A stretch of 64,000 bases of DNA from Podarcis vaucheri. Its lineage: Eukaryota. The stretch lies in NCBI GenBank assembly GCA_965113315.1, contig OZ220368.1; one strand, given 5' to 3'. Shown one piece after another: positions 1 through 27,525 of the stretch; position 1 is the stretch's first letter, and every line of letters starts with the position of its first letter. The notes beneath the pieces are model-generated. The model was not told the DNA's origin. It worked only from the letters and a program-made list of their open reading frames with translations, and searched no databases. Position numbers and translations under genes: made by a program.

Positions 1-753
1 TTTTGTTTGGTTCAGTTTGACCTACTGCTCCACTGAAAACTAGTATGCCTGCCTGCTTACTGAGAGGGCTTATAAAGGAATAACATTTTGTATTATTTAA
101 TGTTTATTTAATGTTTATATAATGCAGGGTCGTGCATCTGTATGTCCACAAGTACTTTTGCCTCTTCATCGTCAAAAGGGAAAGTATTTTTAAAGTCATG
201 TGAGTGGTTCTCTGCTGTATTTTCTGTTTTGCTTTGTAGAGAGGAAGTAGCATTTTTCACTGAGGTGGGCTGAGATCATCTGATGGATGGAGCAAATGGT
301 TTTAGGATGATGTTTACTGTTATGTTTAGTTAACCAGTTGGGGTAGTACCTTGATTGGGATGATTTGGTGCCATCTGCACCCTGCCCCAGCTAGTGAATT
401 GTAAGTGTGCAAGTCATTCAGTGCTAGCAGGCAGTGAAACCATCAGCTCTAGTTTGGTTGCCTTGGCAATGTTAGTGTGCTCTCTCTTCTCTCCCCACCC
501 CCCAAAGAAAGAAAGAAAGTGCAAGGTCATGGCTTGGTTTTCCCTCAATAAAGTTGCCATGAAGCCAAATCTGATTGGCTATTTGATGCTGCAGTGTCAT
601 GTTCATTACATGATCCCTGATTGACTGGGATCACACAGCAAAGAAAGATGTGATGGGCTTAGTAACAGATGGGTAGCCGTGTTGGTCTGCCATAGTCAAA
701 ATAAAAAAAATTCCTTCCTGTAGCACCTTAAAGACCAACTAAGTTAGTTCTTG

Positions 754-791
754 GTATAAGCTTTCGTGTGCATGCACACTTCTTCAGATAC
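754..791 (-). ncRNA. Minimal hammerhead motif, identical copy on the opposite strand
   Basis: Exact reverse complement of 801-838. Confidence 0.75.
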
Positions 792-800
792 TTCTTCTGT

Positions 801-838
801 GTATCTGAAGAAGTGTGCATGCACACGAAAGCTTATAC
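801..838 (+). ncRNA. Minimal type I hammerhead ribozyme motif (Penelope type)
   Basis: GUAU-CUGAAGA-A-GUGUG(CAUG)CACAC-GAAA-GC-U-U-AUAC: stem I GUAU/AUAC, core CUGAnGA and GAAA, stem II, palindromic AGCU in place of stem III. Confidence 0.75.
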
Positions 839-3800
839 CAAGAACTAACTTAGTTGGTCTTTAAGGTGCTACAGGAAGGAATTTTTTTTATATGGGCTTA
901 GTAAATAAACAAAAGTGGTGCCAAAGCAGCAGCTCAAGGAAATAATGGCTGTTAACAGGTAACATTTCATTTCCCCTTTCCCTCACTTCCAAGCTTTCTT
1001 TCCACTACTGTCTAGTGTGTTTAGGTGATACAAGGCCATTTCATAGTGACTCATGATTTGATGTAAGCTGCAGTCGGCCAGCTAGTGATAAGAACAGTTT
1101 GCCCCCCCTTTAATCCATATTTGTGAGATCAGAACATATGTTAATTTCAACTGTTCAATGATAAACTTTTAGAAATGCACAAGTATAATGGGTCAATGAG
1201 GAACTAACTGAACATAAATATCTTAGTGGCCAAACCCCGCAAGGGAGATTGCAGTCTAAACAGTAAATCAGAATTTACAGAGTTTCCAAGAGCCATCTTT
1301 AGCTCAAACAAAGCTACATACAAATTCAAGTATTTGCATAAGAGCAAAGAGTACATTTGTACCTTCAGGCATTTTTGGGGGGTAGCCCACTGGATTTTGT
1401 TCATTTTCCTAGTTGCACTGTCAGCATGAAGTGTGGAAATTACAATATATACTTGACATGTAATTCATGTTAACTGTTCTATTAATTTCATTGCAGAATA
1501 ATTGTGCAAACCAGACAGTGTTGTTGGCATCTGCATCACTCTCTTCTTAGTTGTTTTTTAATGAGAGCATAAGCTCCTAAGAGAAGAGCTATTTTGTATT
1601 TTGAAAATAAAGTCTTATGAAGATCAGCACAGGTCTTTTTCATTCATTTTACAAATTTGGCTGAAACTGATTGTTGTCTTAACAGACTTTAAATCTGCTG
1701 CCTTAGTAGGGTTCTTACAGCCTATGTCATGAAAAATGAATATATAGTGTTATATATCTTTTCTCTCCCTCCCCATCTCTTATGGAGTGTTACATATATC
1801 TTAAAGAGAGCTTTAAATTGCACATTCAGATCATGACACTTTAATTCTACTTGATTTGACAGGAACAGCAGCATAGCTAGCATAATTTTCTTTTGGCATG
1901 ATGATTAGTTGGGATATTTAGCTATGTAAGTGTTGAAATGTGTCTTGTCCTCATTAAGATACATACAACCTAGAAGTTGTTTTACACTATTTTTAATGTA
2001 GAAGAGTGGGTAATACATTTAAATAATAATACTGTAGTATAGGGGTTCATTTCTGTGATAGTTGTTGCTATGTGAATGGTGCCATGGACCCCTGGGTGGG
2101 TTATGCAGCCCTCCTGGGGTTCATGGACTTCCAGTTGTGGGAACTACTGCTGTAGTTCATCATCATCATTTCAGTTAGTTGGGTGAAATTTAATTCCCAA
2201 GGTAGCATGTGTAGGGTTGCAGTTTGGTGGGATAGTGGTTTTTCTTTTTCATTGTTGTAAATTTTCCAAAGGCAACAATGGACTGATAAACTGTTTACAA
2301 TTGGGTAGTCAGAATTAATGACAGAAAATGCTCCTTCCTCATATCCTTGGTGATTTGTGTTAGGAATGTGTGGTTTGTTGGATGGGGGTAATTTTCAACC
2401 AGTGGATTCATCTGGACTTGGTAGGATCTGGAAGGTCTGAGCAGTTACCAAACTTCTTCAAAACGTGTAACTTTGGCTGCCTCTTACGTTACATTATAAT
2501 GGTGGTGTTGCACTTCTGTGACTCCCACCTAGACAATACCCTAGAAATAACTTATCATAAGAGTTCTATAATGTATCTACACTTATAGTGATTTAAAGTA
2601 TCCTGGTTCTGGTTCCCTTCCAGCAACTTTTTGAACTTTGGCAAGGCATTGGGTGTTTCTCTCAGATTTACACATAGAAATGTAATGCATGAACTGTGTG
2701 TCTTGTATTCATATTAACATGATACCTTCTGATTTTATTACTAGATGTTTCACAGATTTTGAGTCTCGACAAAATTAGAAGTTTGTCTAGATACACATTG
2801 TACACTAGATAATGTAAAGTGCAAGTATGACAAGTGGTGCTTGAAAATATGTGCATCTTGTAGGCTCACTCATCAAAGAACTAGGAGAGGCTACAACCCT
2901 TGACTGAGGGCACATTTGGTTATAAACCCAGGTCTATTACTGTGTAATGTGTGAAACAGGCCTTTGCCTAACAAATGAGAGCCCATTTCACTCCCATAAT
3001 TATATAACTCATTCAATTTTCTTTGTGTTATTTTGAGGGTCACTTAATGCAACACAATTTAAATGGGTGCTTGTTGCAGACCTGCTTTATGTGCCTTTTG
3101 AAACGAACATGTTGTCAGCCTCTGTACAAGGTGACAAATAAGATGCACCAGTGACACATGATGCAGGGAGCTGCAACTGGCCCAACTTGCATGTTTTGAC
3201 AAATGAACGTGAAGATGCGTATTCACTTCAGATATGATATTGGCAAGTATACAAAGCAGCTTTATAAGAAATACACTTAAAAACAAAACATATAAAGCAA
3301 CCCTTTTCAAGATCTTTTCTGGTCAACAAATCACTAGGCCCTAAATGGGCAAATTTCAAAATTTCAAAATTCACATAATTCGACTAATGAGGCTCCCCTG
3401 ATCACAATGGACCTACTTAAAAACCCCCACTAGTACTCTAGAATGCTCACATCCAATATTTGCTGTTTTGAAAACTAGACCTTTTTGGTTTTATGAATAT
3501 ATTGAGTAGTGAAGTAAAGAGAACAATCTTTGTGGTTCTGATACCCCAGAGAAACAAGTAAGCAAAGTTTGTGCTGTTTGGTGAAATGTCAGCGTCAGGG
3601 TTTCCCATCAGATGGAAATGAAAGAGCAAAGATAAGGTATGCAAGGGAGCACAAGAGAAAAACAGCAAAGAGGCAGTAAGGAGGCTTTCAGAAACCTCTA
3701 AAAGCTTTATCACAAACATGCAGTGAAAATATTTTGTCTCTTCCAAACACTCCTTAGATAAAGGCCAAGTTGCCGTATGTTCTTGTGAAGAATGTATATT

Positions 3801-5748
3801 CTAGGAACCACCTACTTTTAAGCTTTTTAAGTTGTAATCTCAGATTTAAGTTGTATCTGCATTCCCCCCCTTCTTTCCCTCCCCCTTTGATAGGCTTGTA
3901 AGCACAGTGTATATATTGAAATGGTGTATATATTGGAGCGCGTGTATGGTGTAGTGAATTTTTTTATTTTTGGTCACAGATGTTTGGACTGTTTATGTAC
4001 AGCTGCATGTAGCTAAGGAGAAACTTGAACAAAACATGCATAATCTGTGTATTCGCCAAAGAAATATGATTAGAGACCCTTGCTGGGGCCTGTTTTTGAT
4101 GCATTTATTTCCATGAGACTTGATAGCTTTATTTCCAAAAGTAGTTAGCTCTTGCATAGTTTGAGAGGTGAGCTAAAAAATGGTATCAGAAATAATTCCC
4201 TGAAAAGATGGTTTTATTATTAATGTAGAGCACTTGTGACTAGCCCTTCATTCAAAAGGTCTCAAATGTAAAAGCAAAATAGAAAAAAATAGTCAGACGC
4301 AGAGTAGTATTCTACTAACTCATCCTGTTAGTGCAAGGGTTACCACTAGCACAGTAGGACTCCCCCCTCCTGTCCCTGTGTTTCCTCCACACCCTCCCCA
4401 GATCTGCTCCAGAGGATTGGGGTAACCCCTAGTACAGATTAAGAGGTTGCACAGAGGAAGGGGAGCAGACAAGGTTCTGTTGTGCAAACATAAACTATGT
4501 GCAAGCAGAACTACTTAGTGCAACATTGAATACAACCCTTGTTTTTAAAGTAGAATATCATCAAAACAGTGACTCATGTATTGCTGCAAAGAATTAAACA
4601 TTTCATTATCAAACTGCCAAAGACAGGGTAAATAAAAATGTCTTCACTTGACATCAAAACCAGTAATGGTGGTGAGGTGGGGCACTGCAGGAAGGAAGGT
4701 ACCTTTAGTGGGAGATAACTCCAGAGTTGGGACCCTACAACAGATAATGCTCTTCCTTTGTCCCCTCAACCAAGAACCTTGGTGGGGACTGCAAACCAAG
4801 TCACCTTTCCTCCCCCCGGCTGGTAGTAGAGGAGGCGCTCCTGCAGATATTTGCCCATTTAGGGCCTAGTAATTTGTTGACCAGAAAACAATTGGGCAGG
4901 ACGAAAATCTGGAGTTGCGTGTTCACTAGAGTTAGCACATGTTGGGGCACAAGCTTGACTATAGGCAAGAGGGGCCACCATTACAGAACTGCATAGCACC
5001 TGTCAAAGGAAAGCATTTGCTCATCTAGTTAAAATTATATGGATACGAACATCTGGTAGAAAACAGTATTGCAAATACTAAAAAAATATAAACTTGTCTG
5101 TCTGTCAGTCTCTGCAGCATAGTACGTTGTTTTCATGAGAGGACAAGGCAATTCATTTCCCTAATTCATGCCCTTGAGAATATAATCAACCTTTTCTCTT
5201 TAAATAGCAAACTCCTAAGAAAGAAGTTGTCTACGGTTCCTTATTGAGGTGTGTGAACATTTCTGTCGTCATGACATTGAATGCTTGTTAAGGCTACAAA
5301 GCTGTTAAAATTATTTGCCAGAGATTTGCTGTGTTGCGCAGATTTGAGCTACTAGATGACTAAATATAGACCAGTTCCTGCCTCAAGGAAAAGAGAGTGT
5401 ACTTGCAGCCTCACTCAAAGCATCTCACTTAGGTGTATCACATGTCTTGCTAGATCACACCTGATCTCCTTTTCCAAGAGATGCCTGTGTACTTGAATTG
5501 CCCTAGCTAAAGACATGTTGCTGGCTCCCCCCCCCCCACTTATCTTCTTAGAGGAGGAGCCTTCAACTTCTTCAGACCCAGGATCCACTATTGACCCAAA
5601 CATACATTTTTATTTTTTCTTACCATTATATTGGTTTCGTGGTAGGCTTGTTGTTATGCCTTAGATCATGCCATAATCCACACCCACCAGTTGAATTAGA
5701 GGACATTAGCTATTAAAGAACTAGCAAGATCTTGGGAAAGATCTAACC

Positions 5749-5875
5749 CAGGCACCCTCAAATTCTGCCCTCCAGATGTTTTGGGACTACAACTCCCATC
5801 ATCCCTAGCTAACAGGATGATGATGGGAATTGTAGTCCCAAAACATCTGGGGAGGGCCGAGTTTGGGGGTGCCTG
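5749..5875. mobile_element. hAT (Charlie-type) palindromic MITE
   Basis: TIR caggcaccc/gggtgcctg; 8-bp TSD atctaacc (5741-5748, 5876-5883); ggactacaactcccatcatc core. Confidence 0.9.
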
Positions 5876-6324
5876 ATCTAACCATTATGCTAAATATAAT
5901 TACTCTTGGCTGTATGATATTCCTTGTACTTTTCTCCTTTCATTAAAATAGTTAAATCCAATAATGTTCGTATTTAAAATCAATGGACTTTCTCTATCAG
6001 CTTCAGTAGACAATAGCTCTGCATCCTCCAATTCTTCCCATTTTATGTCATTTTCTCCACCTCTCAATCACTGGTTCTTGATATAGTTTAGCATCTTAAG
6101 TAGTTTCCATAGAATAGTTGGGAATCTCACCAGCAGAAGGTTGTTGAATCACAGGTTGGAAATAACAAGTGAGAAAAAGACTTTAGACTCTGCAATGTGG
6201 ATAAAATGGTTTAAAAAATTGTTTTGCCAACTCTCCCTGGAATCTGTTCTGGTTGTTAATCAGCTTCTTTTAAGTTGACTGCTGTTTGCAAAACCAAAAG
6301 TAAAGCTAGTTGTATTTCCCTATA

Positions 6325-6515
6325 CAGTGGTACCTTGGTTTACAACCATAATCCGTTCCGGAAGTCCAAAACAGGTTGTAACCCAAGGCGTGCTTTCGCC
6401 AATGGGGTCTCCCCCCCCCCAAAAAAAAAATTGGTTGTAATCCAAAAAAGGGGACACACACTTCCGGGTTTGACATGATTGTAATCCAAAACGGTTGCAA
6501 ACCAAGATACCACTG
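6325..6515. mobile_element. Tc1/mariner (Tigger/pogo-like) MITE
   Basis: TA TSD; TIR cagtggtaccttggttt/aaaccaagataccactg. Confidence 0.85.
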
Positions 6516-8504
6516 TATCCATGTAGGAATTTAACTCTAGTCCTGCTTTTGTAAACAGCCATATTAACAAAGCACCAGAAACCTATGGCAGAAACAATTC
6601 TTAAGTTTTACTAATGCAAATTACTTGATGAAAAACCGGAATCTCCTGTATGAACAGAGCTCCTGCAGTGGCTTTCCTTTGGAACTGATCCTCATGCACA
6701 GTCATTTGCAGTGGAGTGTCATATGTGCATCGGAGCATACAGAGAATTCTCTGGGAGAGCACGGGTTTTGTAGCATTGCATGGTGAAAATGATTAGTCTT
6801 CTTTTGAAAAAATGTAATTTTATTAATCTAGATTTCCAAGATAGCCTACAAAAGAGAACCATAAAACAAATATAAAACAGATCAAAAACATCAGAAACAA
6901 AAGCAGTTATTGTAACAACAGTAAAAATACAAAAAGCTGTAGATATAAAATCAGTTTAAATCATTCAAAATGATTTGTCATTTTGAAGGAGTCCTATAAT
7001 TTTTAGTTTTCCTTGTACTGTTAATGTCTAGATGGTGTTCTCATATAAGAAACTGAAGAGATGGAAATGTTACCAGGTGAGGTTCTATCTCCCTTTATAA
7101 TAGTAAGGTGTGGGAGCACTCCTAGAGCTCATTCTGGAGCCTAAAATTTGTAATATGGAAAGGTTTGTGCATTGGAAGGCCTAACACTGCGGCACCCTGG
7201 CGTGGGGGTAGCATCTGTAGAAAGGGAAGCATAGATATTTATCTATTTTTATTGCTTTCATGTTCTGTGTATACCTTGCTCCCAAAGTGACATACAATGA
7301 AAATTAAAACCTAGAACATCAGTATACCATGAATTTATTTTCATGATAAACCCGTTTTGTCCCACTGATACAGAGCAGGAACTCAAGAACCATTGATAAA
7401 CCAGCTTTGTAGGTTTTCGCTGATGCTGAGGAAAGCTGCCTATATGGTGTGCTTCTTTTTCTATGAAAAAGGCACAAGCGCCCTCTTCAGCAGATTTTGT
7501 TGAATTAAGTGAACTTGGTGACAATGTGTCGTACAGCTGTCGAGTTGGATGGGATCTTGGAGGTCATCTAGCTCAACCCCCTGTTCAAGGCAGAATCTAC
7601 AGTGCAAGATGCAACTGTTCATATGATTTATTGATCTATTGGCATAAATACACAGTATTCCTGACAGGTGGTGGGGTCAGCTGGTGTCTCCCCATTCCCC
7701 TCTTTAAGGGTTAGTTCTGAAGAGGACTATGAACAGCAACCCATTCAAACATATTGATCATAATTTGTCTCAGAAGTGAGCAAGTGGACAAAATCCGGCA
7801 GTCTCAGGATTTGAGGCATAAAAGTAATGTGTAGAGACTCACATTGGTTGAAAACCTAATGTATGGACTTGCCATTTATTTTATATCTTTCTTTGCTAGT
7901 GAACAGCAATTCTTTCTCAAATTTGATATGTCACTTTAAGCTCACTACTTCTTTCCCTACAAGAAATTGGCATGGCTTAAATTGGACTCTTCATTGACGG
8001 ATATGCATTCCTGGTCAGAGCTTACGTTTCAGTATTTGAACAACAGCCAAAACTTGTTGAAACAGCTGTTTGGTTTCCTCTGAGGTTGCAGTTCCTTGTT
8101 CTAGAGAGAGGCTGTTCAGATATGATGGACAAACATACATTGGCTTTAGGATAGGTTGTACAGTAAATGCAGCTTGTATAATTCCAGGGATATTTTTCCA
8201 GGGATTTGTTAATTTTTAAATGGCAGCTAAAGAAATACTGAATATTGCTAAGCTTTCATTACTTGCATTTCTAACATTTGTTTTACAAGTAAAAGTAAGA
8301 TGTGATGATGCAAAAGTATAGAAAATCCTATTGCAAACTTGCTGTGATGTAATTTTTTCTACTGTCCAATTCAAGAATGCATTGTTTGAGAAATGAAATG
8401 GATACGATACCAGTCAAACTGTGCTGCTTTACACTATCATTTGCAGAACTTCACATCAATGGTCTAAATCTGATTGATGTCAATAGAATTTAAACAGGCT
8501 AACT

Positions 8505-8834
8505 CAGGGGTCTGCAACCCGCGGCTCCGGAGCCGCATGTGGCTCTTTTACACCTTTGCCGCGGCTCCGGGGCGGATACTAGCGAGGGGAGGAGGCGCAT
8601 TGTGCGCCCCGACACTCCCCACTGTGGCAGGCGCTGTACTGGCTGTGACGTCGCATGGGGGCGGTGCCTGCGTTAGTCACGCACCGTCCCGACGTCACCT
8701 TCCCACCCGCTGTCAGATCAAGGCTCTGGAGATATATTTGTTTTAAATGTCGCAATGGTTTTGTGGCTCCCAGTTTTTTTTCTTCGGAAACGGGTCCAAG
8801 TGGCTCTTTTTGTCTTAAAGGTTGCAGATCCCTG
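8505..8834. mobile_element. Non-autonomous hAT (Charlie group) element, CpG-rich and young
   Basis: TIR caggggtctgcaacc/ggttgcagatccctg; perfect 8-bp TSD ggctaact (8497-8504, 8835-8842); subterminal g(t/c)ggctc repeats. Confidence 0.9.
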
Positions 8835-9280
8835 GGCTAACTAAATGGGCCTAGGCAGACTTGGGGTTAAATCCCCATTTTGCTGTGAAGCTCACTGGGT
8901 TTCCTTGGGCTTGTCCCTGTCTTTTAAGCTAACCTACCTTGGAGAGTTGTCATGAGATTAAGATGTGGATGAGTAGGAGAATGAGATATGCTGCTGTAAA
9001 ATTCCTAGGAAGAAAGGCAGGAGATAAATGCAAGAAATTTGTGATGTTGGTCAGAAGTAGTCTTGTACATAACTAGGGTATGCTGGATCAGTTGCTCAGG
9101 AGGACAGGACAGGTAGTTTCTCTTTTTTCGTGCCCTGTGTAAAGGTTTACTTGCTGTTTTTTCAATAACAAGTCTAGTTAATAAGCATGGCAAATGCTCT
9201 TAAAATATGCTACTTTGGGGCAATTACATTTTTAATGCATCGAAGAATCTCCTTCACCCCTTTGTTGTTATTGAAAGAAT

Positions 9281-9446
9281 GGCTGCAGCTCAGTGAGAGA
9301 GCATCTTTTTTGCATGCAGAAGATCCCAGGTTCAGTCTTTGGCATCTCCAGGTACGGGTGGTAATGTTCCCTGTCTGAAACCTTGGAGAACCAGTCAGTG
9401 TAGACAAGAATGAGCTAAATGGACCAGTGTTGTGACTCAGCATAAG
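9281..9446 (+). mobile_element. Old tRNA-derived SINE
   Basis: A-box-like gcagctcagtg and B-box-like ggttcagtct; related degenerate copies on the minus strand at ~52590-52690 and ~58235-58570; boundaries approximate. Confidence 0.65.
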
Positions 9447-9600
9447 TGCTGGTGGTATTTTTGCTTTTTCAGTGTTGCCTGTTCAGAATAACTAAGGGTG
9501 AGAATTGTGGCCAGAGTAATGCTTACTAGCCTTGGAATTGTTTGAATGCCTCGCAGTTTAGTAGCCTGACTAGTGTCCATGCCGAAAATTTTTAAAACTA

Positions 9601-9957
9601 CAGTGGTGCCTCGCAAGACGAATGCCTCGCATGACAAAAAACTTGCTAGACGAAAGGGTTTTTTTGTTTTTTGAGCTGCTTCGCAAGACGATTTTCCCTA
9701 TGGGCTTGCTTCGCAAGACAGAAACGTCTTGCAAGTTTGTTTCCTTTTTCTTAACACCGTTAATACAGTTGCGACTTGACTTCAAGGAGCAACTCATAGA
9801 ACGCGGTGTGGTAGCCTTTTTTGAGGTTTTTAAAGACTTTGGTGATTTTTGAAGCTTTTCCAAAACTTTCCCGACACCGGGCTTCGCAAGACGAAAAAAA
9901 ATCGCAAGACGACAAAACTCGTGGAATGAATTAATTTCGTCTTGCGAGGCACCACTG
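9601..9957. mobile_element. Tigger/pogo-like MITE
   Basis: TA TSD; perfect TIR cagtggtgcctcgcaagacgaa/ttcgtcttgcgaggcaccactg; internal tcgcaagac repeats. Confidence 0.9.
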
Positions 9958-11829
9958 TACACATTGATGATTCAGTAATAAACTCATTAGACTAGTATAG
10001 TGGAAAAACTGGAATTGGGCATGTACCAGTTCTAACGTGTCTAGAAAAGCTCATTTCAAGACAGGTGGTAATTTTACAAATTCTTAGAAGTTTTAAGCAT
10101 GAACAACCTGGAGAACTCCATGTGGTGGTGGTATGAGACTTTATAATACAAGCAATTTGTGCAAAATGGGGAGAATTGTGCTTCTCTTGAAAGGCACGCT
10201 TGGGGATCTGCTCATTTGTTAAATGTAATATTGATAGGGTTGTTTATGCTGTATATAATAATCATATATAGGGTTGAGTACCCGCTCCTATGTAGTCTAA
10301 ACAGCAGCACTCAACACACGTGAGGGAGATACAGACAAGGTTTTCAGAAGTACATAAAGTCTTTAGGAAGAAAATAATGCTAAAATGGGAGAGGTAGCCC
10401 AGTGAGGACTCAGTAGCCATGGAATGTTGGCTAAGAGAGAGAAATCTCACATTCAAGACTGCAGTCATGTGCAGGCTTACCTGGAAGTAAACCGAATTGA
10501 ACACAATGGGACTTTGTTCAAGTAACTGTATGCAGGATTTCATAATCGGGTATTACATTAGGTCAGCTTATTAACAAATGGCCACTTTTGAATCATGTAG
10601 GAAGACTTAATAAGGAGCAGGTAGTGTCTCTGAATAGTTTCAAAATGTACTCTGGACTGTCTGCATAACCTGATCTTTTGACTGGAGATGGCTGGGACTT
10701 GCTCTGAGCTATGCCCCCTCCCATAGTCTGATGTTATAGAATCCAGAGCTCAAAGGAACATCAAAGCAGCCACCGCATCCATGCTGTCTGCCAGTTCAGG
10801 AAATCCAATAGACCTGAATCCCTGAGAGATGGCTATCCAGCCTCTGCTTAAAAACATCTAATAAAGGCGAGTCCAACATGTTCTGAGGTGTCCTGCAGAG
10901 TGGAGATAGGGAGTCTGTGGCCTTCTAGCAGTCATTGCTGGCTGGGATTGCTTGGAGTGCAGCAACCTGTGGAGGCCATGAGTTCCCTATCCATGCTGTA
11001 AGGATTTGTTTCTGCATCACCTGCTAGACATATGTATCATGTGTGCATGTGGGGAGGAGGAGTGGAGATGGTTCAACACCTCACATCTGTTCTGAGGCCC
11101 AGGGGTAGAATGGAAGGTACCCCATCTTCACTTTGCTTTGTACTTTGTTTGGGTCTATTTTTTAGCTTTTCCTTGCATTAGATTCCAGTGTATCTGAAAT
11201 CCAGGTTTGTAGAATAGCTATATCCAACAATATGCAAGAGTAGTTTAAGATTGTTAAAATGAAATTCATATTGTAAATTTCACTTTCATTTATTTGCTCT
11301 ATTATAGGTGAACCAAAACTATTTTCTGCTTTATTTTACTTGCCTTTACACTCCTGATGTATGGGGAAATAAATATTAGTCAGTATAAAACAGTAGATCT
11401 AGTTTTTATAGAGGTATTCCTGGATGAGTTAGAAGTTTACTTGGCCTTTCAGTTCTTGTATAATCATACATGGGGATCCTGTGGCTCTAACTTCTTTCCT
11501 GCATGCTGAATGCAGATACAAGGCTTAGTGAGGATTGACTGACCTCTCAATCTTGACTTCAAAACCTAGAAAGTTCATAATCCTTTTTATGTGTAAATAT
11601 CTGTACACTGAAGGTGGTGTGGTGTAGTGGCTCAGACGGTGGAATTAACCTTCTGCAGTCAATACATGTCAATGTTGAAGAAGTGCTTGTGTCTACAAAC
11701 TTTGCAAATAAACTTCAGAGACAACATGAATGTGCCTCTTCACGCATACAGTATCTGTTTTCATACATTGAATGTGCTTCCTTCCCCTCCAGATTCTCTG
11801 TTGCCATCTGCTTTAGGGGGTGGGGGGTG

Positions 11830-12126
11830 TTTATTAATTAATTAAATTTGTAAAGCACCTTTCGTCCGTGGATTTCAGGGGAGTTCACAGCATAAAAATA
11901 CAAGATAAAAACACAAAATACATAATAAGAACAAAACATAACTCCCCCGCCGACAAAAATGTGTAAAAGGGTATAGGATGTTAATTAACTAAGGGCCTAG
12001 TTGAGGAGGAATGTTTTTGCCTGGCACTGAAAGGTATAAAATGAAGGCATCAGCCGCACCTTCCTGGGAAGAGCATTCCACAAACAGGGAGCTGCTGCAG
12101 AAAAGGCCTGTTCTTATGCTGCCACC
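11830..12126 (-). mobile_element. L2 LINE 3' fragment (degenerate)
   Basis: Similar to 18356-18743 (gcattccaca...aaggccc-like block; AT-rich tail at the left end); boundaries approximate. Confidence 0.6.
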
Positions 12127-15100
12127 TGCAAGACAATGGTCCAGCACATCCACTGCCACACCTGCAGATGTGCTTCAATATAACAAACTAACAGATTTTA
12201 AAACTCGTGAAAAATTATTGTCAACACTCTACTGGTGGAAGCGGCCATCCACCTGCCAAAAATTCCCGTTGCGGCTTTGCAAGTATCCTCGCCCCTCACT
12301 TCCCCTTTAAGCCCCCAATCTGAGATGTTTAAAAGGGAATTGTGGTGATACTTGCAAAGCCTTTAAGATAAACTGCTTGCTCCCATTTAGGCTGAAACTG
12401 GATTGTGGGGGCTACCTAAAAGTGCAGCTTGAAGCAGTTTGTGCTTCTTTATGTTGGCAGGTGGCAGTGGGGTGTGTGAGAGAGACTGTTCTACTGTTCG
12501 CTCACCCACTTGCTTAAAGAAAAGCACGAGCTGCTTCAAACAGTACTTTTGCAAAAGGCTTTAATCCCTCCTCATCGGTTGATAAGGGATTAAATCCTGC
12601 TGCCTTGACCATACGTATGCTGTTCCCTACTGGGAACAGGGCACACAACCAATGCAGCATTAAACCTTTTCCTCCTGCTCAACAGCTGATGTCACTGGTG
12701 ATGCCAGCTGATGAGTGGGTGTGGTTTGAGGGAAATGGTTTTGAAGGCCAAATTGGACTCCCTAATGGGCTAAGATTAGCTCATGGGCTAAAAGTTCACC
12801 ATATTTTCAGTACTAAAACAGATGCCACTGGTTAAAGATGGTGATGATCATTATATGGACATACCTGTTGAAAGATAAATTGCAAACGGCAAACACCTTA
12901 AGAGGCAATTTCCCCATTTCTCTTACACAAGGGATGGCTCTTCCACGTTTATGCATATTATGACACATGTGCATCTCTCCTAGAAACCAAGAAAGTGAGA
13001 AATATGTTTTAGCTGCAGAACAATAGCATTAACTAAAATTTGTAGTCTTCTTGTTTCCAGCCTGGTCACATGGGGTCAAAACTGTAGAGTGTATATGTTG
13101 CCCCGTCCCCAGTGTCCTGATCATTTATCAGTGTTTTTGACTGCAAGGATGCTTGTAAGCACATCCAGACAAACATGCTTGTAAGCCCCCTTCAGAACTT
13201 CAGACGAAACATTTAAAGGGTGAGTAGCATGGGACTATCTTCAGGCATCACAGACAAGGTTGACATTCAAGCCGCTGTCCCACTACACACTTTTTGCCCT
13301 TGCATGTTGAGCTGAATGCCAGAAGAGGGCTAGTGACTAATGTTTATTCGTAGTGACTCAAAAATTTTTCTTAATCATGTCACATACCTGTTTTGTCAGT
13401 TTTGTACCTTGAGAGTATAGTTGTCTCTTGCAATAATTGGAGAAAACAGAAGAGACGGGGGCTGCTGGAAATCCCACCCAGCCTCCTCAGTTGTTGCAGG
13501 ATAAAGTCAAGGTTATCCCTGCTGTTGTAAAGCAGGCAGGAAAGAGATCTGGAAAAAGGGACCAGTGGAAAACCTGCACCCTTTCACCCTACCTTAGCAG
13601 CCTAATTATGGGATGAATCTCTCCATTCAAGGATCTGGCAGTCCTAGGGCTGAATGCACTCTGAGAACTTGGCAAACTTTTCTATAACATATTTCATCCC
13701 AGGGCAGTGGGAGGCAATGTATCATCTTGTTCATCCTGCTGCTGTCCTCTTAGCAACACTTAATTTCTTGAAATGCAAACAAAACAGAAACATTGCAGTG
13801 ATAATTCTTTGGTGGTAGCACTGTATATTTAAAAATAATTGGTTATCTTTAAAAAAAACCAGTGTTATAATCTTTTTATGCAATAAATCACGCCATTGTT
13901 GCATGTATTTCCAAGAAAGCTTAAAACATAAGGATTTACTTAACAAATACACACAAAGGCATCTCTTTATGCCATAACGAAGTGTGTAGCTTTCAAACAT
14001 TAAGTGCCTTAACTCACAGTGCTGGAGAACTGAAAAGTCTGCCCCTCTTGAAGGGGAGGTATAACAGTGCTGTACTTAGAGAAACTGCTGCTCCATTTAT
14101 TGCAGTGGTCCTTGCCAATTGGTTTGAGTTTTTACGATACTTATTTGTGATCTACAGAACATGTGAGAGCCAACTCTCCCAGCAGGCTTCCTTTCTAATT
14201 TAGTCAACCCCACAAAAGTTGAGTAGAGTGGCATAGGACTAGAGCAGAGTGAATAATAACTCTGCTCCTCTGCTTCCAAATCTGTATTGGTAAGAGCTAG
14301 TGTAAAGTAATAATGATAGACTTTGCTGTGAAGCCCACCTTATAAACTCACCAATGCCCAAACTACATTGTGGAAACAAATGTGTGTATCAGGGGCCTAT
14401 TGGCTCTATTGTTGAAGTGGGGGGGGGGGGACGGCTTCAGCTGGTTGGCTGTCTGAAATGGAGAAGTGGCTCAACACTTTCCCTGACTCGCTTTCCCAAT
14501 GTAAGCCTTTCCTCACAAGTTGCTTCTTCTTCCAGGGAGTTTGAGACAGTAATGTGAATTTTCTTTAAAAAGATTCTTATGTAAATCAGGGTAATTTGAA
14601 TTGGAAAGGCATCAGTTTGCACTGGAAAGTTTTCTGATGTCCTAGAGAATGAACTAATTAGCATGTTTAATTTACTTATATTTAGTAAACAAAGCTAACA
14701 ACTTCGAAATGGCCAAGTTTGACTAATACATATTTACAAGTGGAACCTGGTTAGTGAACTTATAAAATGGGAAATTTTCTGTGGAAAATGAAAGCACTGG
14801 TTCCAAGCATTCATTTACCACGTAAACATGCTTGGAATGCTTGGGTGGGTGGCACAGGGAAGGATTGAGCCCTCCCTTCCTGCTTATTACCCCTTTCTCA
14901 ACCCACTTGCTCATGTTTCTGAAGAAGCTGCTTTTCCTTGGAAGAGAATGTTTGGAATTTTGTTACCTTCATTTGTGGCATTTAGGTGCTCAAATGGGCT
15001 TAGGCAAATTCCTCTCTCAGCCTTGGTATCCTCCCACCCTTGCCATCTGTAGTATGGGGACAGTAATACTTGAGTAGTTTATAGGTTTTTTAAAGCAATT

Positions 15101-16737
15101 ACTGAGATAACATTATGTGCTTTTGAACACTCAGAAGTGCTATATAAATACTTGATAATATTATTAAGCTGTGTTCATTCTCTAGCAAGCTGTCCTTATT
15201 GGTATCCAGCAAATGCTGGTGTCCTGTGGAGAAAGCAATGAATCAAAAAGCTTTTTGAGTTATGTATATCCAGTGTATTCCTCTGTGTGTTTTATAAAAC
15301 TCAGCAACCATTTGTAAGGACAGACTGCATGAAACCAGCAGATAACAGGATCATCACCAGTGTGAGGCGTACTGCTTGTGAAGTGGTCTCAGTTGTCTTT
15401 TCCTGCTCTCGGAAGCAATGCAGTGTAGATTGAAATGTTTGCTTTAAAAATTCCTCTGTATAGTAAAGTTGCTTCTATAGGGTGCAATAGATTTATTTGT
15501 TGACTGATGAATCTATTGAATGTGGTTCTCTCCCCCCCCCTCCCAATGATCAGTGTAGTTACAACATGAAATTTGCAGAACAGATTAATGATGAACTGTG
15601 TAGGATCAAGAAAATATGTTCGATAATTAATGGTTCCTTTGAGTCCCAAGTATCCACAGCAGAAGCTGCCTGCTGCATCCCTGCATTGGCATTGCTGCCC
15701 TCCTCTTTCTCCTTTGCAGAGGCTGCCTTTTCTGCTCTGGGTAAATTAGAGCAAGGGGCTGGAGGAGAGGAAAAAAAGTTGTTTGAGACATCTGTGCTTG
15801 CATCTCCTAAAAACGTTAAGACAGAATGTTGGAGGAGGGGCCCCTTCAGGTGTTTTGCAGGTTTCAGGTGGCACCCTGGCCTCCCAGGATGGGTAAAAGC
15901 ATATATCACCTCATGAAAGGGGTTTGGGAACTTGAAACTTGTATGTGCACTATTTTGTGGAATTTTGATAGATCTAATAAAGGTGTTGTCCTCGTATGGA
16001 TGTGTTACTTTTTTTCTTAATGGCCAACATAGCTAACTTTCCATTTTAAGGTTTTCAAAGATTAGGAAAGATTCCTCTTCCCAGGAAGATTTAAAAAAAT
16101 AAAGCCACTTCTTAAAATGTGGAGGGGAAAGCAAGAAAGCATTGTTTTGCATTCAGTAAAGATTGTGTGTTGAACTGAGCTGAGACTAACACATTAGTGT
16201 TATTTAGAAAGCTCAATTACTATTGCTTTGTTTAATGTCAGAGCATTTTTCTTTCAGCTGTGCTAGTCTTGTGCTTGATCTTGGCCCTGGAAAGAACTGC
16301 TAAAAAGCCCATTAAGGTTTCACTTTCTAATGCCTGTGAAAGGATTTAAGTAGATTGTTGAAATTGCTCCTAGTAAATGGTGTGATCAGCATCACAATCC
16401 ACCTTGCTACAAACTGTTGCTGACAGCAAAACACTTCCTACTACTAGCTTTCTTTACCATGGCATTTAAGAGCTTGTAGACAAAACATCACAAGAGAACT
16501 TGGTTAGAATGGCTGCATGCATTCTGGTGTGTGTGTATTGAACCTGAATCAAAGTCCCAGTGCATCTGACACAGGAGTTAGCATTTGAGCAGGAGCTGCC
16601 TGTGAAGGATGAAGATTGGAATCAGCACAAGGGGAAAAGAAATAGCTTGTGCTTGTTGGAAAAATGCTGATGGTCCACTGGCTGCTAATATTGCTTTTAC
16701 CAGGTGCGTATGGCTCTTAATGCTGGGTTTATATTTC

Positions 16738-16887
16738 ATAGAATCATAGAATTGCAGAGTTGGAAGGGACACTGAGAGTAATCTTGTCCAACTGCCTGCA
16801 ATGCAGGAATATCAACTAGATCATATACATGGGAGTCTGTTCTTCTGTTGAACAGCTCTTACTGTCAGAAAGTTCTTCCTGATGTTT
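16738..16887 (-). mobile_element. CR1-type 3' end fragment
   Basis: atagaatcatagaa tail repeat followed by gagttggaaggga; related fragments at ~7530-7600, ~10735-10890, ~41015-41140 and ~54455-54575. Confidence 0.7.
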
Positions 16888-17812
16888 CCAGGGATAGTGC
16901 TAAAGCCAAAATCATGTATAGTCAAAACACATATGATTCATTGGTGGGTGAGATTGCCTAAGTTTTTCCCCTGGATGCCCCCTTTCTGCGTCCTTTTTAA
17001 TTTTTTTAACAATTTTTGCCAAATGTGTAAATCTGAATGTGTACGAGTTAAATGTGTGTAAGTTGCAAGTTACCTGCACAGATTTGTGACCTTGTCCTGT
17101 TCAGTTGTCTCATAGACGAGTTCAATTCACAGATGAAAGAAAATTCATTGTTTGATGGCTGCAGTTAAAGTAACAGCTCAACCTGTGCAGGCTGCCTATC
17201 TTGCATCAAATTCTACAAATAGTATTTGCATGTCACCTGCTAACACCTGTAATCAAAGGACTTCACTTGTTTGACTGAGAGTCATCAAGTTATGAGGTTT
17301 CAAGAGAGAGAGAAACTGAGACAGAGAGAAGTGAGCGATGAAAATGAATATATATTCATTTTATATAGCCTTTTCTGACACTGACTTTGCTATTCTTATA
17401 TCTGAGTAGGATTCACAGCCCAATCCTCTGTATGTTTACTTGGAATGGGGCTTTCTTACAGGCAAGAATGAATAAAGTAACAGTCTTAGTTGATTAACTG
17501 ACATTGGATTATTTTTATCAGTGCACTTTTAAAAAATCTAATTTGGTCCTGATGTAGCCCTGTAATAGGAATAATAATGAAATAAAATGTTGACATTCCC
17601 TTTTGTTACTAAACCTTGTTCAGTAATAAAAAGGCATACATATTGAGGTTTTGGTAATAAGCAGATAAATTGTAATTTGTTTTGTGTTAGTTTGACTCAG
17701 AGTCCTATTGGCAACAAATGAGAGGCATGTTTGGTAATCTTAAGTGTGCAACTGCAAATGCAGGAACTATTTGTGGAAGAAGTCTAGGCATGTGTATACA
17801 TACACCACCACA

Positions 17813-18260
17813 TTTTTTAAAAAAATGATATTTATTGAAATTTTACAGACAATAAAAGGTTACAGAATTAAAAATAGGAAATAAGAAAAATTAACAATAA
17901 TAAAAGAAAAAGAGATACAAAAATACAAAGACAAAATACATAAAAAGAAAAAAAAGTTAAAAAGAAATCAATATTTTCATATCTTATATTTCATTTACTT
18001 GTTTCCTGACCTCCTCACACCCCCTTTTTTGTATTCCAGTTCACATGGTTAATTCAGCAAATCCTTACCCTCTATCATTTATCTTTACTCAATATCTTAA
18101 CCTATTATAACTATATATTTTCAACCATTGTCAATCCGTATTTACATATTCTTGTTAATCTTTTTACCAATACCGCTTATTTTCAATCCAACATCCCTTT
18201 AACATTCATTAATCTTACAGTATTTCTGCAAGTAGTTTATAAATTTCTTCCAGTCTTCCA
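17813..18260 (-). mobile_element. L1/Tx1-type LINE 3' end, 5'-truncated
   Basis: Minus strand reads EDWKKFINYLQKYCKINEC* (L1 ORF2-like C-terminus), then a T-rich 3' UTR, AATAAA and an A tail. Confidence 0.7.
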
Positions 18261-18355
18261 TACAGTCTTTACATAGCCGGTTGTTCTCTTCAGCCTCACA
18301 GGTGAGTAGAGAACTAGTCCAGCACAAGCCATTATTTGAAATGAGCACCAGTCAC

Positions 18356-18404
<49 letters not shown>

Positions 18405-18743
18405 TATCCTGCCCATCTGGTTGGGTTTCCCCAGCCACTCTAGGCGGCTCCCAATTAAGTGTTAAAAACAATACAGCATTAAATATTAAAAACTTCCCTA
18501 AACAGGCTGCCTTCGGATGTCTTTTAAAAATAGGATAGCTGCTTATTTCCTTGACATCTGATGGGAGGGCATTCCACAGGGCGGGTGCCACTACTGAGAA
18601 GCCCCTCTGTCTGATTCCCTGTAACCTCACTTCTCGCAATGAGGGAACCGCCAGAAGGCCCTCGGTGCTGGACCTCAGTGGCTGAACAATGGGGGTGGAG
18701 ACACTCCTTCAGGTATACAGGACTGAGGCCATTTAGGGCTTTA
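18356..18743 (-). mobile_element. L2 LINE 3' end with (TAA)n tail
   Basis: Minus-strand ORF RGFSVVAPALWNALP...FKRH matches the L2 ORF2 C-terminal motif; (tta)n at 18356-18403. Confidence 0.88.
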
Positions 18744-19597
18744 ATTGCTCAGCAGTCCATTTGGACTGGAAATCTAAACGTTATTGTTATTAATTTCATT
18801 GCTGTACCACTTTATATGTTAAAGAAAAATCAAAGCGATTTACAACACATTAAAACATCAAATAAAACAATTCAGAGTAAAACAAATTTAAGCTTCAAGG
18901 GCAATATTTAGATTCTTCGCTAAAGTGACATTTTGCTTTCACCATATTTAGTTACCTACTTAATTTATATAGCTGTCCCATAACAGGAGTATTCTAGTTT
19001 GTTTCTGCATTTGAAGTTTGGATACTACCTTGGTCTCTACACCTGTTTTGAATCTGTCTTGAAGACAGTTATCTGGATGAAAGCTGGTGTGCATGTTTTG
19101 AACTCTATTTGGAGTTTCAAGTTTGAACTCCCTCAGGTTTTCTGAGGGTTAAAAAGTACAAACCATAACTGTAATGCAATATCTTCCTTGAGATTTGTGA
19201 TATTGGAATGATCCTTTCTGACATAAATTTCTGTTTGATGTTTGAACATCTGCTTGCCCTTTATTTACACTTAAGATGCAATATAGATTCTAGTGTGAAG
19301 TGAGGTCTACTTTAGTGAAAATCATTATTTTACTTCCTCTGCCTCTTTCTTCCCAGGGTATAGCTGATTCAGGCAGTGATGCAACTGACATGATTAAATT
19401 GCTTTTCTTAGATTGCTAAATAATTGCACTGTAATGCTGGGCAGCACCTGCTTAAGATGTTAGTAGCCTCGGAAATTGAATCTATTTCTCCAAGTTATCT
19501 GGGTTCCTGTTTTCTAATCAAAAAGTATTCTAGACCTCAGAATATTTACCTCCTCCCTTTCTGTAAGCCAAAAAATAGGGCTGTTGCTTTCACAGCA

Positions 19598-19673
19598 GAG
19601 GAGGAAGGGAAAGGAGAATGTTAGCCGCTTTGAGACTCCTGAAGGGGATATCAAATCCAAACTCTTCTTCTTC
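19598..19673 (+). mobile_element. 3' fragment of Squam3-like SINE (or its partner LINE)
   Basis: Near-identical to 52858-52935 (gaggaagggaaaggagaatgttag...gatatcaa.tccaaactc), with a (ctt)n tail and an internal deletion. Confidence 0.8.
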
Positions 19674-20362
19674 ACTAAAATTAAATGGGACAGGCTTCAT
19701 ACATTCACTAGTGTAGAGTCCATCTGTCCCCTCCCCACACATAAATCTCTGTTGACGATAACCAACTGCTCCACTAGGGTGCAGCAGTGCTTATTAAAAA
19801 TAATTCAATTGTAGCTGGTCTTTAATGACATTTTCTTAAATGGCTACTTTCCCTATAAGAGACAGTAAGCCTCTGCATACAGTTACTGGGAATCATAAGC
19901 AGAAGGAGGGTTGTTGCACTTCGTCTTGCTTGTAGGCTTCTTAAAGGCATCTGGTTAGCCAGTGTGAGAACAGGATGTTGAACTAGATGGGCTTCTGATC
20001 CAGTGATGGTGGCACCAACAGGGCCTCACTTGCCCATTATAAGATCTGAGATGGTTGATAATGGGGGGTTGTTCTTTTCGGTACTTGGTTCTGTCTTCAA
20101 GGGCAGCCCCACATAATAGTGTTTTACATTAGTCTATACAGGAGCATGGACAACTCAGGTAAGGCTATTCCAATCTAGGAACAATTACAGCTGGTGACAG
20201 AGCTTGAGCTGGGCATAAACACTCCTAGCTACAGAAGCCACTTAAGACTCCAGTGATAAGTTGGTCTCCAAGTGTACTTCCAGCCTACAAACGTCTTTCT
20301 TCAGAGGAAAGGTCTGTGGTACTTCCTCCTCCTTAACATCCAGATATCTGGGTGGGGTATAA

Positions 20363-20363
20363 A

Positions 20364-20408
<45 letters not shown>
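20363..20408. repeat. (ATT)n microsatellite, probable L2 tail
   Basis: Preceded by tgggtggggtataaat, the same motif as the L2 3' end at 18404-18418 (reverse complement). Confidence 0.85.
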
Positions 20409-20409
<1 letters not shown>

Positions 20410-26400: not shown

Positions 26401-26798
26401 CTAGTGGCCCTTTCTGCTTTTTCTATAAGAAGATGGGTAACCTGTAGCGCATAGGTTACATATGAACACCCAAGATTTGATTTGATTTGATTTGATTTGC
26501 AGCCCAAAGACCCCTCTAAATTTTGTCTTTCCCCCAAATTAAAAATTGTTTTAGCTGCATGTATATCTGTGTGGCCTAGAAAAAGACAATACTTTCCTTG
26601 TACAGTAAGCAGAGAATACATAATCTGTTGTGCGGTGCTGTGTGTTTGTGTTTGTTTGTATGTCTGGGAGGGAAGGAGGACCAATTATTTTAAATGTCAT
26701 GTGGAAGAGAACAGGACACCAAAACTCCTTTAATATTTGCAAGGTTTTATTCTTGGGGGCAATATGGTTTTTCTATTTGAGTAGGGAAGTCCTGAGTA

Positions 26799-26952
26799 CA
26801 GGCCTACCTTGGGTTACAGACACTTCAGGTTGCGTGTTTTTTGGTTGTGCACCATGCCGAACCTGGAAGTACTGGAACAGGCGCAGACGCGGCACTGTGG
26901 GTTGCGAACGTGCCTCTTGCACGGATCACTTTCGGAACCCAAGCGTCCACTG
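26799..26952. mobile_element. Tigger-like MITE, degenerate
   Basis: TA-flanked cag...ctg ends; related to 34599-34838 in the opposite orientation. Confidence 0.7.
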
Positions 26953-27525
26953 TACTGTGGTGATCCTTTGCTAGTTTTTTCCACAGGTTGGTTTATGGAT
27001 GAACCTGCACACTTCATTTAAACCTTTTCCCTCTGTCCTTTTTTGTCACTTTCCATGCACCAGAAATACTAACTTGTCTATCCCAGGAGAGGAGAATTGC
27101 CCATCTGTAAAATGTCAGGGAACATAATAACAATAGATTTGGGCTTATTTTCAGAGAGAAGCAGAGAGAAACAGTCATGTAGGGTGAGGTCCTCAGACTT
27201 TTTATTTATTTCGTTTCATTTCCTTCCCTTCACCCAAAGGTCCCAGGTTACAGCATTAAAAACTATTTTTAAACCCCATCTCTTGGCACTTGCCAAGGCC
27301 CATTGCCCCCCCCCCCCAAAGTTGAGGACCCCAGCAGTAGAGGATGCACATGGGTTTGCCTGATAATTGATGCCAATTTCATACATATAGTGAAGTGATG
27401 TACATCACTGCTACTGGGATGTTTAGGTTGCATATTTGTGGCAGCCAATACAAAGCTGCTTTACTAGAAATTGTCATAGCTTCTCAGCGATTTCCTAATT
27501 CGTTTCTCTGTTCACTTGCTTTCAG

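What the first reader, a model, noticed from the sequence alone, without database searches (positions are those of the whole stretch)
653..904. Young Penelope-like insertion forming a perfect 91-bp palindrome with a hammerhead motif on each strand, inside TOP1 intron 2
Seen: arms 701-791 and 801-891 are exact reverse complements around a 9-nt spacer, flanked by a perfect 13-bp TSD, so the insertion is recent. Each arm holds a complete minimal hammerhead: CUGAAGA core, stem II GUGUG/CACAC, GAAA, palindromic AGCU and stem I GUAU/AUAC, with predicted cleavage after U834. Established: Penelope-like elements have inverted/tandem pseudo-LTRs with minimal type I hammerheads thought to cleave as dimers through the palindromic stem III. 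Inference: in TOP1 pre-mRNA the antisense arm is transcribed first and would sequester the sense ribozyme in a 91-bp duplex. This self-silenced geometry could be why the insertion is tolerated in an essential gene.
Basis: partly seen in the sequence, partly recalled or inferred. Interest (0 to 1): 0.7.

Follow-up and report, generated by a model that had tools for sequence, protein, structure and literature searches.

The report
Penelope retroelement stub, primed from both ends
This 226-base mirror-image insertion in an intron of the TOP1 gene is one of hundreds of near-identical stubs of a known kind of jumping gene (Penelope-like), likely built at each landing by copying the start of one RNA onto both cut ends of the target DNA, so its shape likely reflects how the element inserts rather than protection of this gene.

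Summary
Six other samples hold the empty site, so the insertion is recent.

It is the 5' leader (+2 to +128) of a Neptune-type Penelope-like retrotransposon whose RT + GIY-YIG parent lies in the same genome. The genome holds 757 such centre palindromes, and 65 of 90 sampled copies are inverted, with centres that differ from copy to copy.

One arm carries the 35-nt tail and the other lacks it. Both arms share source alleles, and their 5' ends pile up at a TATA/Inr start (83 of 155 arms), with none at the ribozyme cut (0 of 155).

Best reading: both target ends prime reverse transcription on one uncleaved RNA, on either side of the tail hairpin, and the two cDNA ends are then joined. Ribozyme sequestration in the pre-mRNA is predicted, but it is the family's default geometry; selection for it at TOP1 is not supported.

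The architecture is published; this mechanism was not found in the papers searched. The scan reported the same reading before in other genomes.

The parts
653..665 (.). Target-site duplication, left copy (13 bp)
   Evidence: empty site with one copy in 6 of 6 other runs; family TSDs mostly 11-16 bp, median 13, found in 104 of 118 loci
666..700 (-). 35-nt Penelope 'tail', on one side only; holds a predicted AC-loop hairpin and the parent ORF's first ATG (693-691, position +101 of the parent leader)
   Evidence: tail concept from PMC11167929 and PMC8557442
666..791 (-). Tail-bearing arm (T arm): parent leader +4 to +128; inferred cDNA primed by the top-strand target end at the distal start site
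754..791 (-). Minimal type I hammerhead motif, minus-strand copy
792..798 (.). Junction insert TTCTTCT, matching nearby element sequence; typical of the family's variable centres
   Evidence: 17 of 22 inserts of 5 nt or more hold a 5-mer of +1..+45, chance 0.22 each
799..891 (+). Tail-less arm (N arm): parent leader +2 to about +93, ending at the U-rich run; inferred cDNA primed by the bottom-strand target end at the proximal start site
801..838 (+). Minimal type I hammerhead motif, sense to TOP1: stem I 801-804/835-838, core from 805, bulged A812, stem II 813-817/822-826, palindromic AGCU 830-833, predicted cut after U834 (C in most family copies)
   Evidence: descriptor in PMC4209133
892..904 (.). 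Target-site duplication, right copy (13 bp)
1..27525 (+). Host context: part of TOP1 intron 2 (exon 3 starts at about 27,526)

Best explanation
The insertion is a promoter-less 5'-leader stub of a Neptune-type Penelope-like retrotransposon, and its mirror shape was likely made during insertion by both cut target ends priming reverse transcription on one uncleaved RNA. Shown: the parent has a TATA box at -32, an Inr-like TCAGT at +1, the hammerhead at +4..+41, a U-run at +85..+91, the tail at about +94..+135, and an RT/GIY-YIG ORF starting at +101. Insertions pair one arm ending after the tail with one ending before it, head to head, inside a 11-16 bp duplication. Inferred steps: (1) a transcript starts at +1; (2) the protein, probably a dimer, binds the tail hairpin and nicks both target strands about 13 bp apart, leaving 3' overhangs; (3) one overhang primes at the U-run and the other past the tail, each using 1-4 nt of microhomology; (4) the trailing cDNA displaces the leading one from the RNA, or stalls, so both run towards the same RNA 5' end; (5) host end-joining links the two cDNA 3' ends by microhomology or short templated inserts. 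The hammerhead is carried along uncut. In TOP1 pre-mRNA the stub is predicted to fold into a 91-bp duplex as a by-product.
For: (a) Built anew at each site: 29 different centres among 45 full-arm palindromes. One source allele occurs with different centres (L026, L046, L060). (b) One tailed plus one tail-less arm in 65 of 65 simple inverted copies, 12 of 12 arm-selected pairs and 25 of 25 long pairs; these sets overlap by 3 loci. (c) Both junctions show microhomology to the RNA: mean 2.16 nt (n=97) and 1.44 nt (n=73) against 0.65 and 0.63 permuted, reached by 0 of 5000 permutations. (d) Same source: allele 82G>A is in both arms in 10 insertions and in one arm only in 0, of about 88 pairs (2.5e-9 under independence); U-run length agrees in 59 of 67. 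(e) Same molecule: 7 of 25 long pairs end within 20 nt of each other at internal points, against 1.3 expected, reached by 0 of 20,000 permutations. (f) Not a fold-back of the tailed cDNA: the tail-less arm reaches further 5' in 25 pairs, the tailed arm in 10, and 30 are equal (p=0.017). In L075, L089 and L110 the tailed arm is only the tail, stopping where the other arm starts. A short tail-less single copy exists (L178). (g) Uncleaved template: 83 of 155 arm 5' ends lie at +1..+5 and 0 at +35..+41. (h) In vitro, the anole PLE protein nicks and extends both strands, starts at two sites bounding the tail, is predicted to be a dimer, and uses uncut RNA (PMC11167929). (i) Pfam found no RNase H in the two ORF pieces scanned.
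Against: All mechanism steps are read from end products. Deletions at the palindrome centre after insertion could shorten either arm, and gene conversion between arms could equalise alleles (both recalled as general properties of palindromes; not tested). 30 of 65 pairs have equal arms and fit a fold-back equally well. 8 of 67 U-runs disagree, and the compound locus L037 carries different alleles in adjacent arms. One active source locus per germ cell would also give shared alleles with two RNAs. The start site at +1 is inferred from motifs and end pile-up; no RNA reads were available. PMC11167929 saw no difference in start site between the strands and did not show both sites used in one event. 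The microhomology figure is slightly inflated because duplications were extended maximally. The 5' ends were read by hand from BLAST tables.
Confidence: 0.6

Rival explanations
1. Two-ended priming on two separate RNA molecules held by a protein dimer, both from the same source locus.
For: Both strands are extended in vitro and a dimer is predicted (PMC11167929). Arm lengths are often very unequal (18 of 25 long pairs). L037 has arms with different alleles.
Against: It does not explain why no simple pair has two tails or none, nor 7 of 25 co-terminal internal ends, nor tailed arms that stop where the other arm begins (L075, L089, L110).
Confidence: 0.17
2. Fold-back or self-priming: one cDNA (or an antisense RNA, as proposed in PMC3846280) hairpins at its end and copies itself; later deletions reshape the centre.
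For: It explains shared alleles, co-terminal ends and the one-sided tail. Palindromic centres are common.
Against: The tail-less arm is longer in 25 of 35 unequal short pairs and by more than 0.7 kb in L075, L089, L103, L127 and L128. The commonest centre leaves a loop of one base and occurs in both mirror forms (11 of 45). A tail-less single copy exists (L178).
Confidence: 0.15
3. The palindrome is a self-propagating non-autonomous element (retrozyme- or SINE-like) copied as a unit, with ribozyme processing.
For: High copy number, near identity and fixed outer ends. Retrozymes derive from PLE termini (10.64898/2026.07.22.740005).
Against: Centres are not inherited (29 kinds in 45). The stubs lack the TATA box. 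No arm starts at the ribozyme cut (0 of 155). A continuous size series runs up to multi-kb pairs that include the ORF.
Confidence: 0.04
4. One reading: the inverted form is kept in TOP1 because the antisense arm silences an otherwise harmful ribozyme.
For: The sense hammerhead is predicted to be fully sequestered in context. Tandem retrozymes are somewhat depleted from Xenopus introns (10.64898/2026.07.22.740005).
Against: The geometry is the default of the family (65 of 90), so one locus carries almost no signal. Minimal PLE hammerheads show no monomer cleavage (PMC4209133) and need the element's protein (PMC11167929); 8 of 9 Xenopus dimers did not cleave. This copy has U at the cut site where most copies have C.
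Confidence: 0.07

Closest known systems
Insertion architecture of endonuclease-bearing Penelope-like elements: inverted 5'-truncated pLTR plus one-sided 30-40 bp tail (Pen2a_Av, PMC3846280; Fig. 2 legend of PMC8557442)
   Same: Head-to-head inversion, 35-nt tail on one end overlapping the ORF's first codons, TATA + Inr in the pLTR, target duplication, hammerhead in the pLTR.
   Different: Here the whole insert is only the +1..+135 leader, in hundreds of near-identical young copies whose ends can be counted; those papers leave the mechanism open or propose antisense self-priming.
PAc (Poseidon_Ac of Anolis carolinensis, PMC11167929)
   Same: Two start sites bounding the tail, an AC-loop hairpin, AT-rich targets, uncut RNA as template.
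   Different: The parent here has the CX4CXXC linker of Neptune/Nematis, which Poseidon lacks, and its ORF starts at +101, downstream of the hammerhead, not at stem II. That paper's main text does not link two-strand extension to the inverted repeats.
Minimal type I hammerheads of metazoan PLEs (PMC4209133)
   Same: Core, 4-bp stem I, bulged base before stem II, G10.1-C11.1 pair, palindromic 15/16 positions; opposite-strand pairs 100-700 bp apart were noted there.
   Different: Stem II is 5-6 bp rather than 7-8 and is itself a 14-nt palindrome; U at the cut site in this young subfamily.
LINE-1 twin priming
   Same: The second target end primes internally on the RNA and gives an inversion joined by microhomology; L075, L089 and L110 look just like it.
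   Different: The inner start is a fixed site, and the two cDNAs usually overlap, which duplicates the segment instead of only inverting it.

Membership tests
EN+ Penelope-like element (parent family) | Single ORF with RT followed by a C-terminal GIY-YIG endonuclease | tested here: met
   RVT_1 E 2.6e-12 and GIY-YIG E 3.5e-5 in L111; L052. The ORF in L112 is broken by an internal deletion and frameshift; no intact copy was sought.
EN+ Penelope-like element (parent family) | pLTR in partial tandem or inverted, contiguous with the ORF | tested here: met
   L112 is pLTR-ORF-pLTR with an inverted 5' copy; the window's arms match its leader at 98-99%
EN+ Penelope-like element (parent family) | 30-40 bp tail at one end | tested here: met
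   666-700; tailed arms end at +125..+144, tail-less arms mostly at +85..+105
Neptune clade | CX2-5CXXC linker between RT and EN | tested here: met
   C-x4-C-xx-C upstream of the GIY-YIG motif; shared with Nematis (PMC8557442)
Neptune clade | RT phylogenetic placement | not tested
   No reference PLE set was in hand; the clade label rests on the linker and on Neptune and Poseidon being the vertebrate clades (10.64898/2026.07.22.740005)
Minimal type I hammerhead | Conserved core, stems I and II, palindromic stem III positions, NUH cut site | tested here: met
Minimal type I hammerhead | Covariation in the stems | tested here: inconclusive
   The first 100 of 12,615 core matches are one young family with only scattered single changes
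Minimal type I hammerhead | Match to an Rfam hammerhead model | tested here: not met
   No hammerhead family up to E 10; the motif lacks a stable stem III
Minimal type I hammerhead | Self-cleavage | not testable with these tools
   Needs an in vitro assay
Non-LTR retrozyme | Head-to-tail tandem units, each with a hammerhead | tested here: not met
   Copies are head-to-head or single; 1 of 90 (L147) has a partial direct repeat
MITE or fold-back DNA transposon | Fixed terminal inverted repeats and an inherited interior | tested here: not met
   The ends are unequal and ragged, the centres vary, and the parent is a retroelement
microRNA precursor | Match to an Rfam family above its gathering score | tested here: not met
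   Best 67 bits against a cut-off of 90; generic hairpin matches only

The most novel reading that the evidence does not exclude
Penelope-like elements insert by priming both target ends on a single RNA at two fixed sites around the tail hairpin, with strand displacement by the trailing polymerase. This one step would produce the long-unexplained inverted pseudo-LTR and the one-sided tail. Because the start sites lie near the 5' end of the element's own mRNA, it would also strew the genome with short hairpins that could feed double-stranded RNA against the parent's leader.
Probability: 0.5. Interest if true: 0.65.

Novelty: new member of a known kind. Interest (0 to 1): 0.42.

Why it matters
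The locus itself is an ordinary recent intronic insertion. Its value is as one of a young, countable set of copies that bears on an open question: how Penelope-like elements form inverted repeats and tails (called still undefined in PMC8557442). The set separates one-RNA, two-RNA and fold-back models and predicts the outcome of a simple experiment in the published in vitro system. Thousands of such hairpins in a vertebrate genome are also candidate ADAR and Dicer substrates; inverted Penelope copies gave siRNAs in Drosophila (PMC3681739).

Tried and rejected
Rfam on 400-1200 gave only sub-threshold microRNA hairpin matches, and on one arm nothing useful.

No RNA holder was listed by the run search. 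The guessed-RNA run X17 is from another organism and has the empty site, so editing, splicing and cleavage were not examined. All 8 runs laid were contigs, which cannot span the centre or show RNA ends.

An assembly artefact is rejected: both junctions are in independent contigs, the empty site exists elsewhere, and the centres vary genome-wide. A hammerhead-cut RNA as template is rejected (0 of 155 arms). A covariation test was uninformative. A sequence look-up in earlier findings returned nothing.

Literature: six searches. 'Penelope' + 'twin priming' + 'inverted' + 'retrotransposon' gave 2 papers, seen as listings only and not about PLE mechanism by their titles. The library lacks most subscription papers, and Dfam/Repbase could not be checked, so the family may already have a name.

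Rows left out of counts: 10 of the first 100 listed tail hits were not in the 90-copy sample. Of these, 7 hits (6 insertions) are inverted, 1 is single and 1 was not fetched, and 1 further hit is also inverted (L013, L027, L072, L075, L111, L112 twice, L113 inverted; L083 single). 3 of the 90 were complex or ambiguous (L037, L107, L136). L067 and L094 are one locus, so one 'recurrent asymmetric' allele is a duplicate.

Full report
1. Observation. The arms 701-791 and 801-891 are exact reverse complements, the spacer is 9 nt and the 13-bp direct repeat flanks the insert. The RNA folds into a 91-bp stem, z = -25. TOP1 exons 1 and 2 lie upstream in L130 and exon 3 begins at about 27,526 (the motifs used to find exons 1-2 were recalled). 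Exons of Pfam Topoisom_I_N lie further along the + strand of the window, and a short exon weakly matches human topoisomerase I structures (E 0.07). The insertion is therefore in intron 2. Contigs from 2 of 2 runs of sample S1 run into the element from both flanks. 6 of 6 other runs, from five organism labels including the same one, join 652 to 892 and leave one copy of the 13-mer. The insertion is recent.

2. What it is. The element is a family member. The genome holds 553 exact matches to a 26-nt tail word, 13,789 to a 30-nt arm word, 757 centres where both arms reach +4 within 25 nt, and 12,615 hammerhead cores against 14 control matches. Locus L052 joins the arm to the end of an RT + GIY-YIG ORF. 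L112 shows pLTR-ORF-pLTR with an inverted 5' copy, the ORF broken by an internal deletion. The linker carries C-x4-C-xx-C, which marks Neptune and Nematis (PMC8557442, passages); no tree was built. In the parent, a TATA box lies at -32 from an Inr-like TCAGT (+1) and the ORF's ATG is at +101. The window's insert is +4..+128 on the minus strand, with the tail, and +2..+93 on the plus strand, without it, joined by 7 extra bases that copy nearby element sequence.

3. Anatomy across copies. I took 90 of the first 100 listed tail hits (of 553): 65 are inverted pairs, 22 single and 3 complex (ends read by hand from BLAST tables). Every simple pair has one tailed and one tail-less arm. The same holds in 12 of 12 pairs among 22 insertions chosen by the arm word and in 25 of 25 long pairs of up to several kb. 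Duplications were found at 104 of 118 loci, median 13 bp. Both junctions share more bases with the RNA than permuted targets do: 2.16 against 0.65 nt and 1.44 against 0.63 nt. 83 of 155 arm 5' ends fall at +1..+5 and none at +35..+41, where the ribozyme would cut. Centres vary, with 29 kinds in 45, and 17 of 22 longer inserts hold a word from +1..+45 against a chance rate of 0.22 (that set of 45 includes loci picked for likeness to the window's copy). Such templated inserts resemble polymerase-theta end-joining (recalled).

4. Mechanism. The two arms share a source: 82G>A is symmetric in 10 insertions and asymmetric in none, and U-run length agrees in 59 of 67. They seem to share a molecule: 7 of 25 long pairs end within 20 nt of each other inside the element, against 1.3 expected. 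The tail-less arm is not simply a copy of the tailed cDNA: it is the longer one in 25 pairs against 10, and in L075, L089 and L110 the tailed arm is the tail alone, ending where the other begins. One model covers all of this: both 3' overhangs prime on one uncut RNA, at the two start sites that bound the tail; the trailing cDNA displaces the leading one or stalls; and repair joins the two ends. It fits the in vitro behaviour of the anole element, which nicks and extends both strands, starts at two sites and uses uncut RNA (PMC11167929; parts 1-2 of 4 read, supplements not read, and its Figs S1-S2 may bear on this). It differs from the antisense self-priming proposed in PMC3846280 (passages and Discussion read). 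Against it: centre deletions and arm conversion after insertion could mimic parts of the pattern, 30 of 65 pairs are neutral, 8 of 67 U-runs disagree, L037 has unlike arms, and +1 was not measured. I put it at 0.6, two RNAs at 0.17 and fold-back at 0.15.

5. The ribozyme and TOP1. The motif fits the minimal hammerhead of metazoan PLEs (PMC4209133, parts 1-2 of 4 read). But every head-to-head copy reads antisense first on both strands, most copies are head-to-head, and published minimal motifs are inactive as monomers or without protein. 8 of 9 Xenopus retrozyme dimers did not cleave (10.64898/2026.07.22.740005, parts 1-3 of 5 read; its supplements are closed). No second family copy was found in the window or the 10 kb upstream. 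The tolerance idea is unnecessary, though not excluded; no annotation was at hand to test it.

6. Novelty. The architecture and the hammerhead are published, so this is a new member of a known kind. The single-RNA, two-ended model was not found in six searches of a library that lacks most subscription papers. I had written this reading down before seeing that the scan reached like conclusions in other genomes; those notes are unchecked and are not support. Inverted Penelope copies gave siRNAs in Drosophila (PMC3681739, passages), so the hairpins may have such a role here; this is untested.

7. Verdict.

Noticed in passing
window 3315-3357 and 4846-4888: A 43-nt inverted pair, 95% complementary, 1.5 kb apart; possibly the ends of a non-autonomous DNA transposon, no clear target duplication seen
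   Followed up: partly
window 813-826 and 766-779: Hammerhead stem II is a perfect 14-nt palindrome; several copies (L041, L139, L168) are joined exactly through it, and others through ACAC at +22 (L058, L093, L149, L150)
   Followed up: partly
window 834; genome-wide: The cut-site base is U in this young subfamily but C in most family copies
   Followed up: partly
L112:4179-7314: Near-full parent copy with a 13-bp duplication whose long arm ends at +45, 8 nt past the ribozyme cut, not at the usual +95; its ORF has an internal deletion
   Followed up: partly
L037:890-1540; L113; L117; L121: Compound insertions with extra inverted ORF fragments between the arms
   Followed up: no
G000:C27:91754708-91762104: A second gene with Topoisom_I_N exons, probably the mitochondrial paralogue (name recalled)
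   Followed up: no
G000:C28:15975066-15975620 and 16044472-16045026: Two head-to-head pairs with identical spacing 69 kb apart, suggesting a segmental duplication
   Followed up: no
window 59656-59690: A third loose hammerhead-core match, within chance expectation
   Followed up: no
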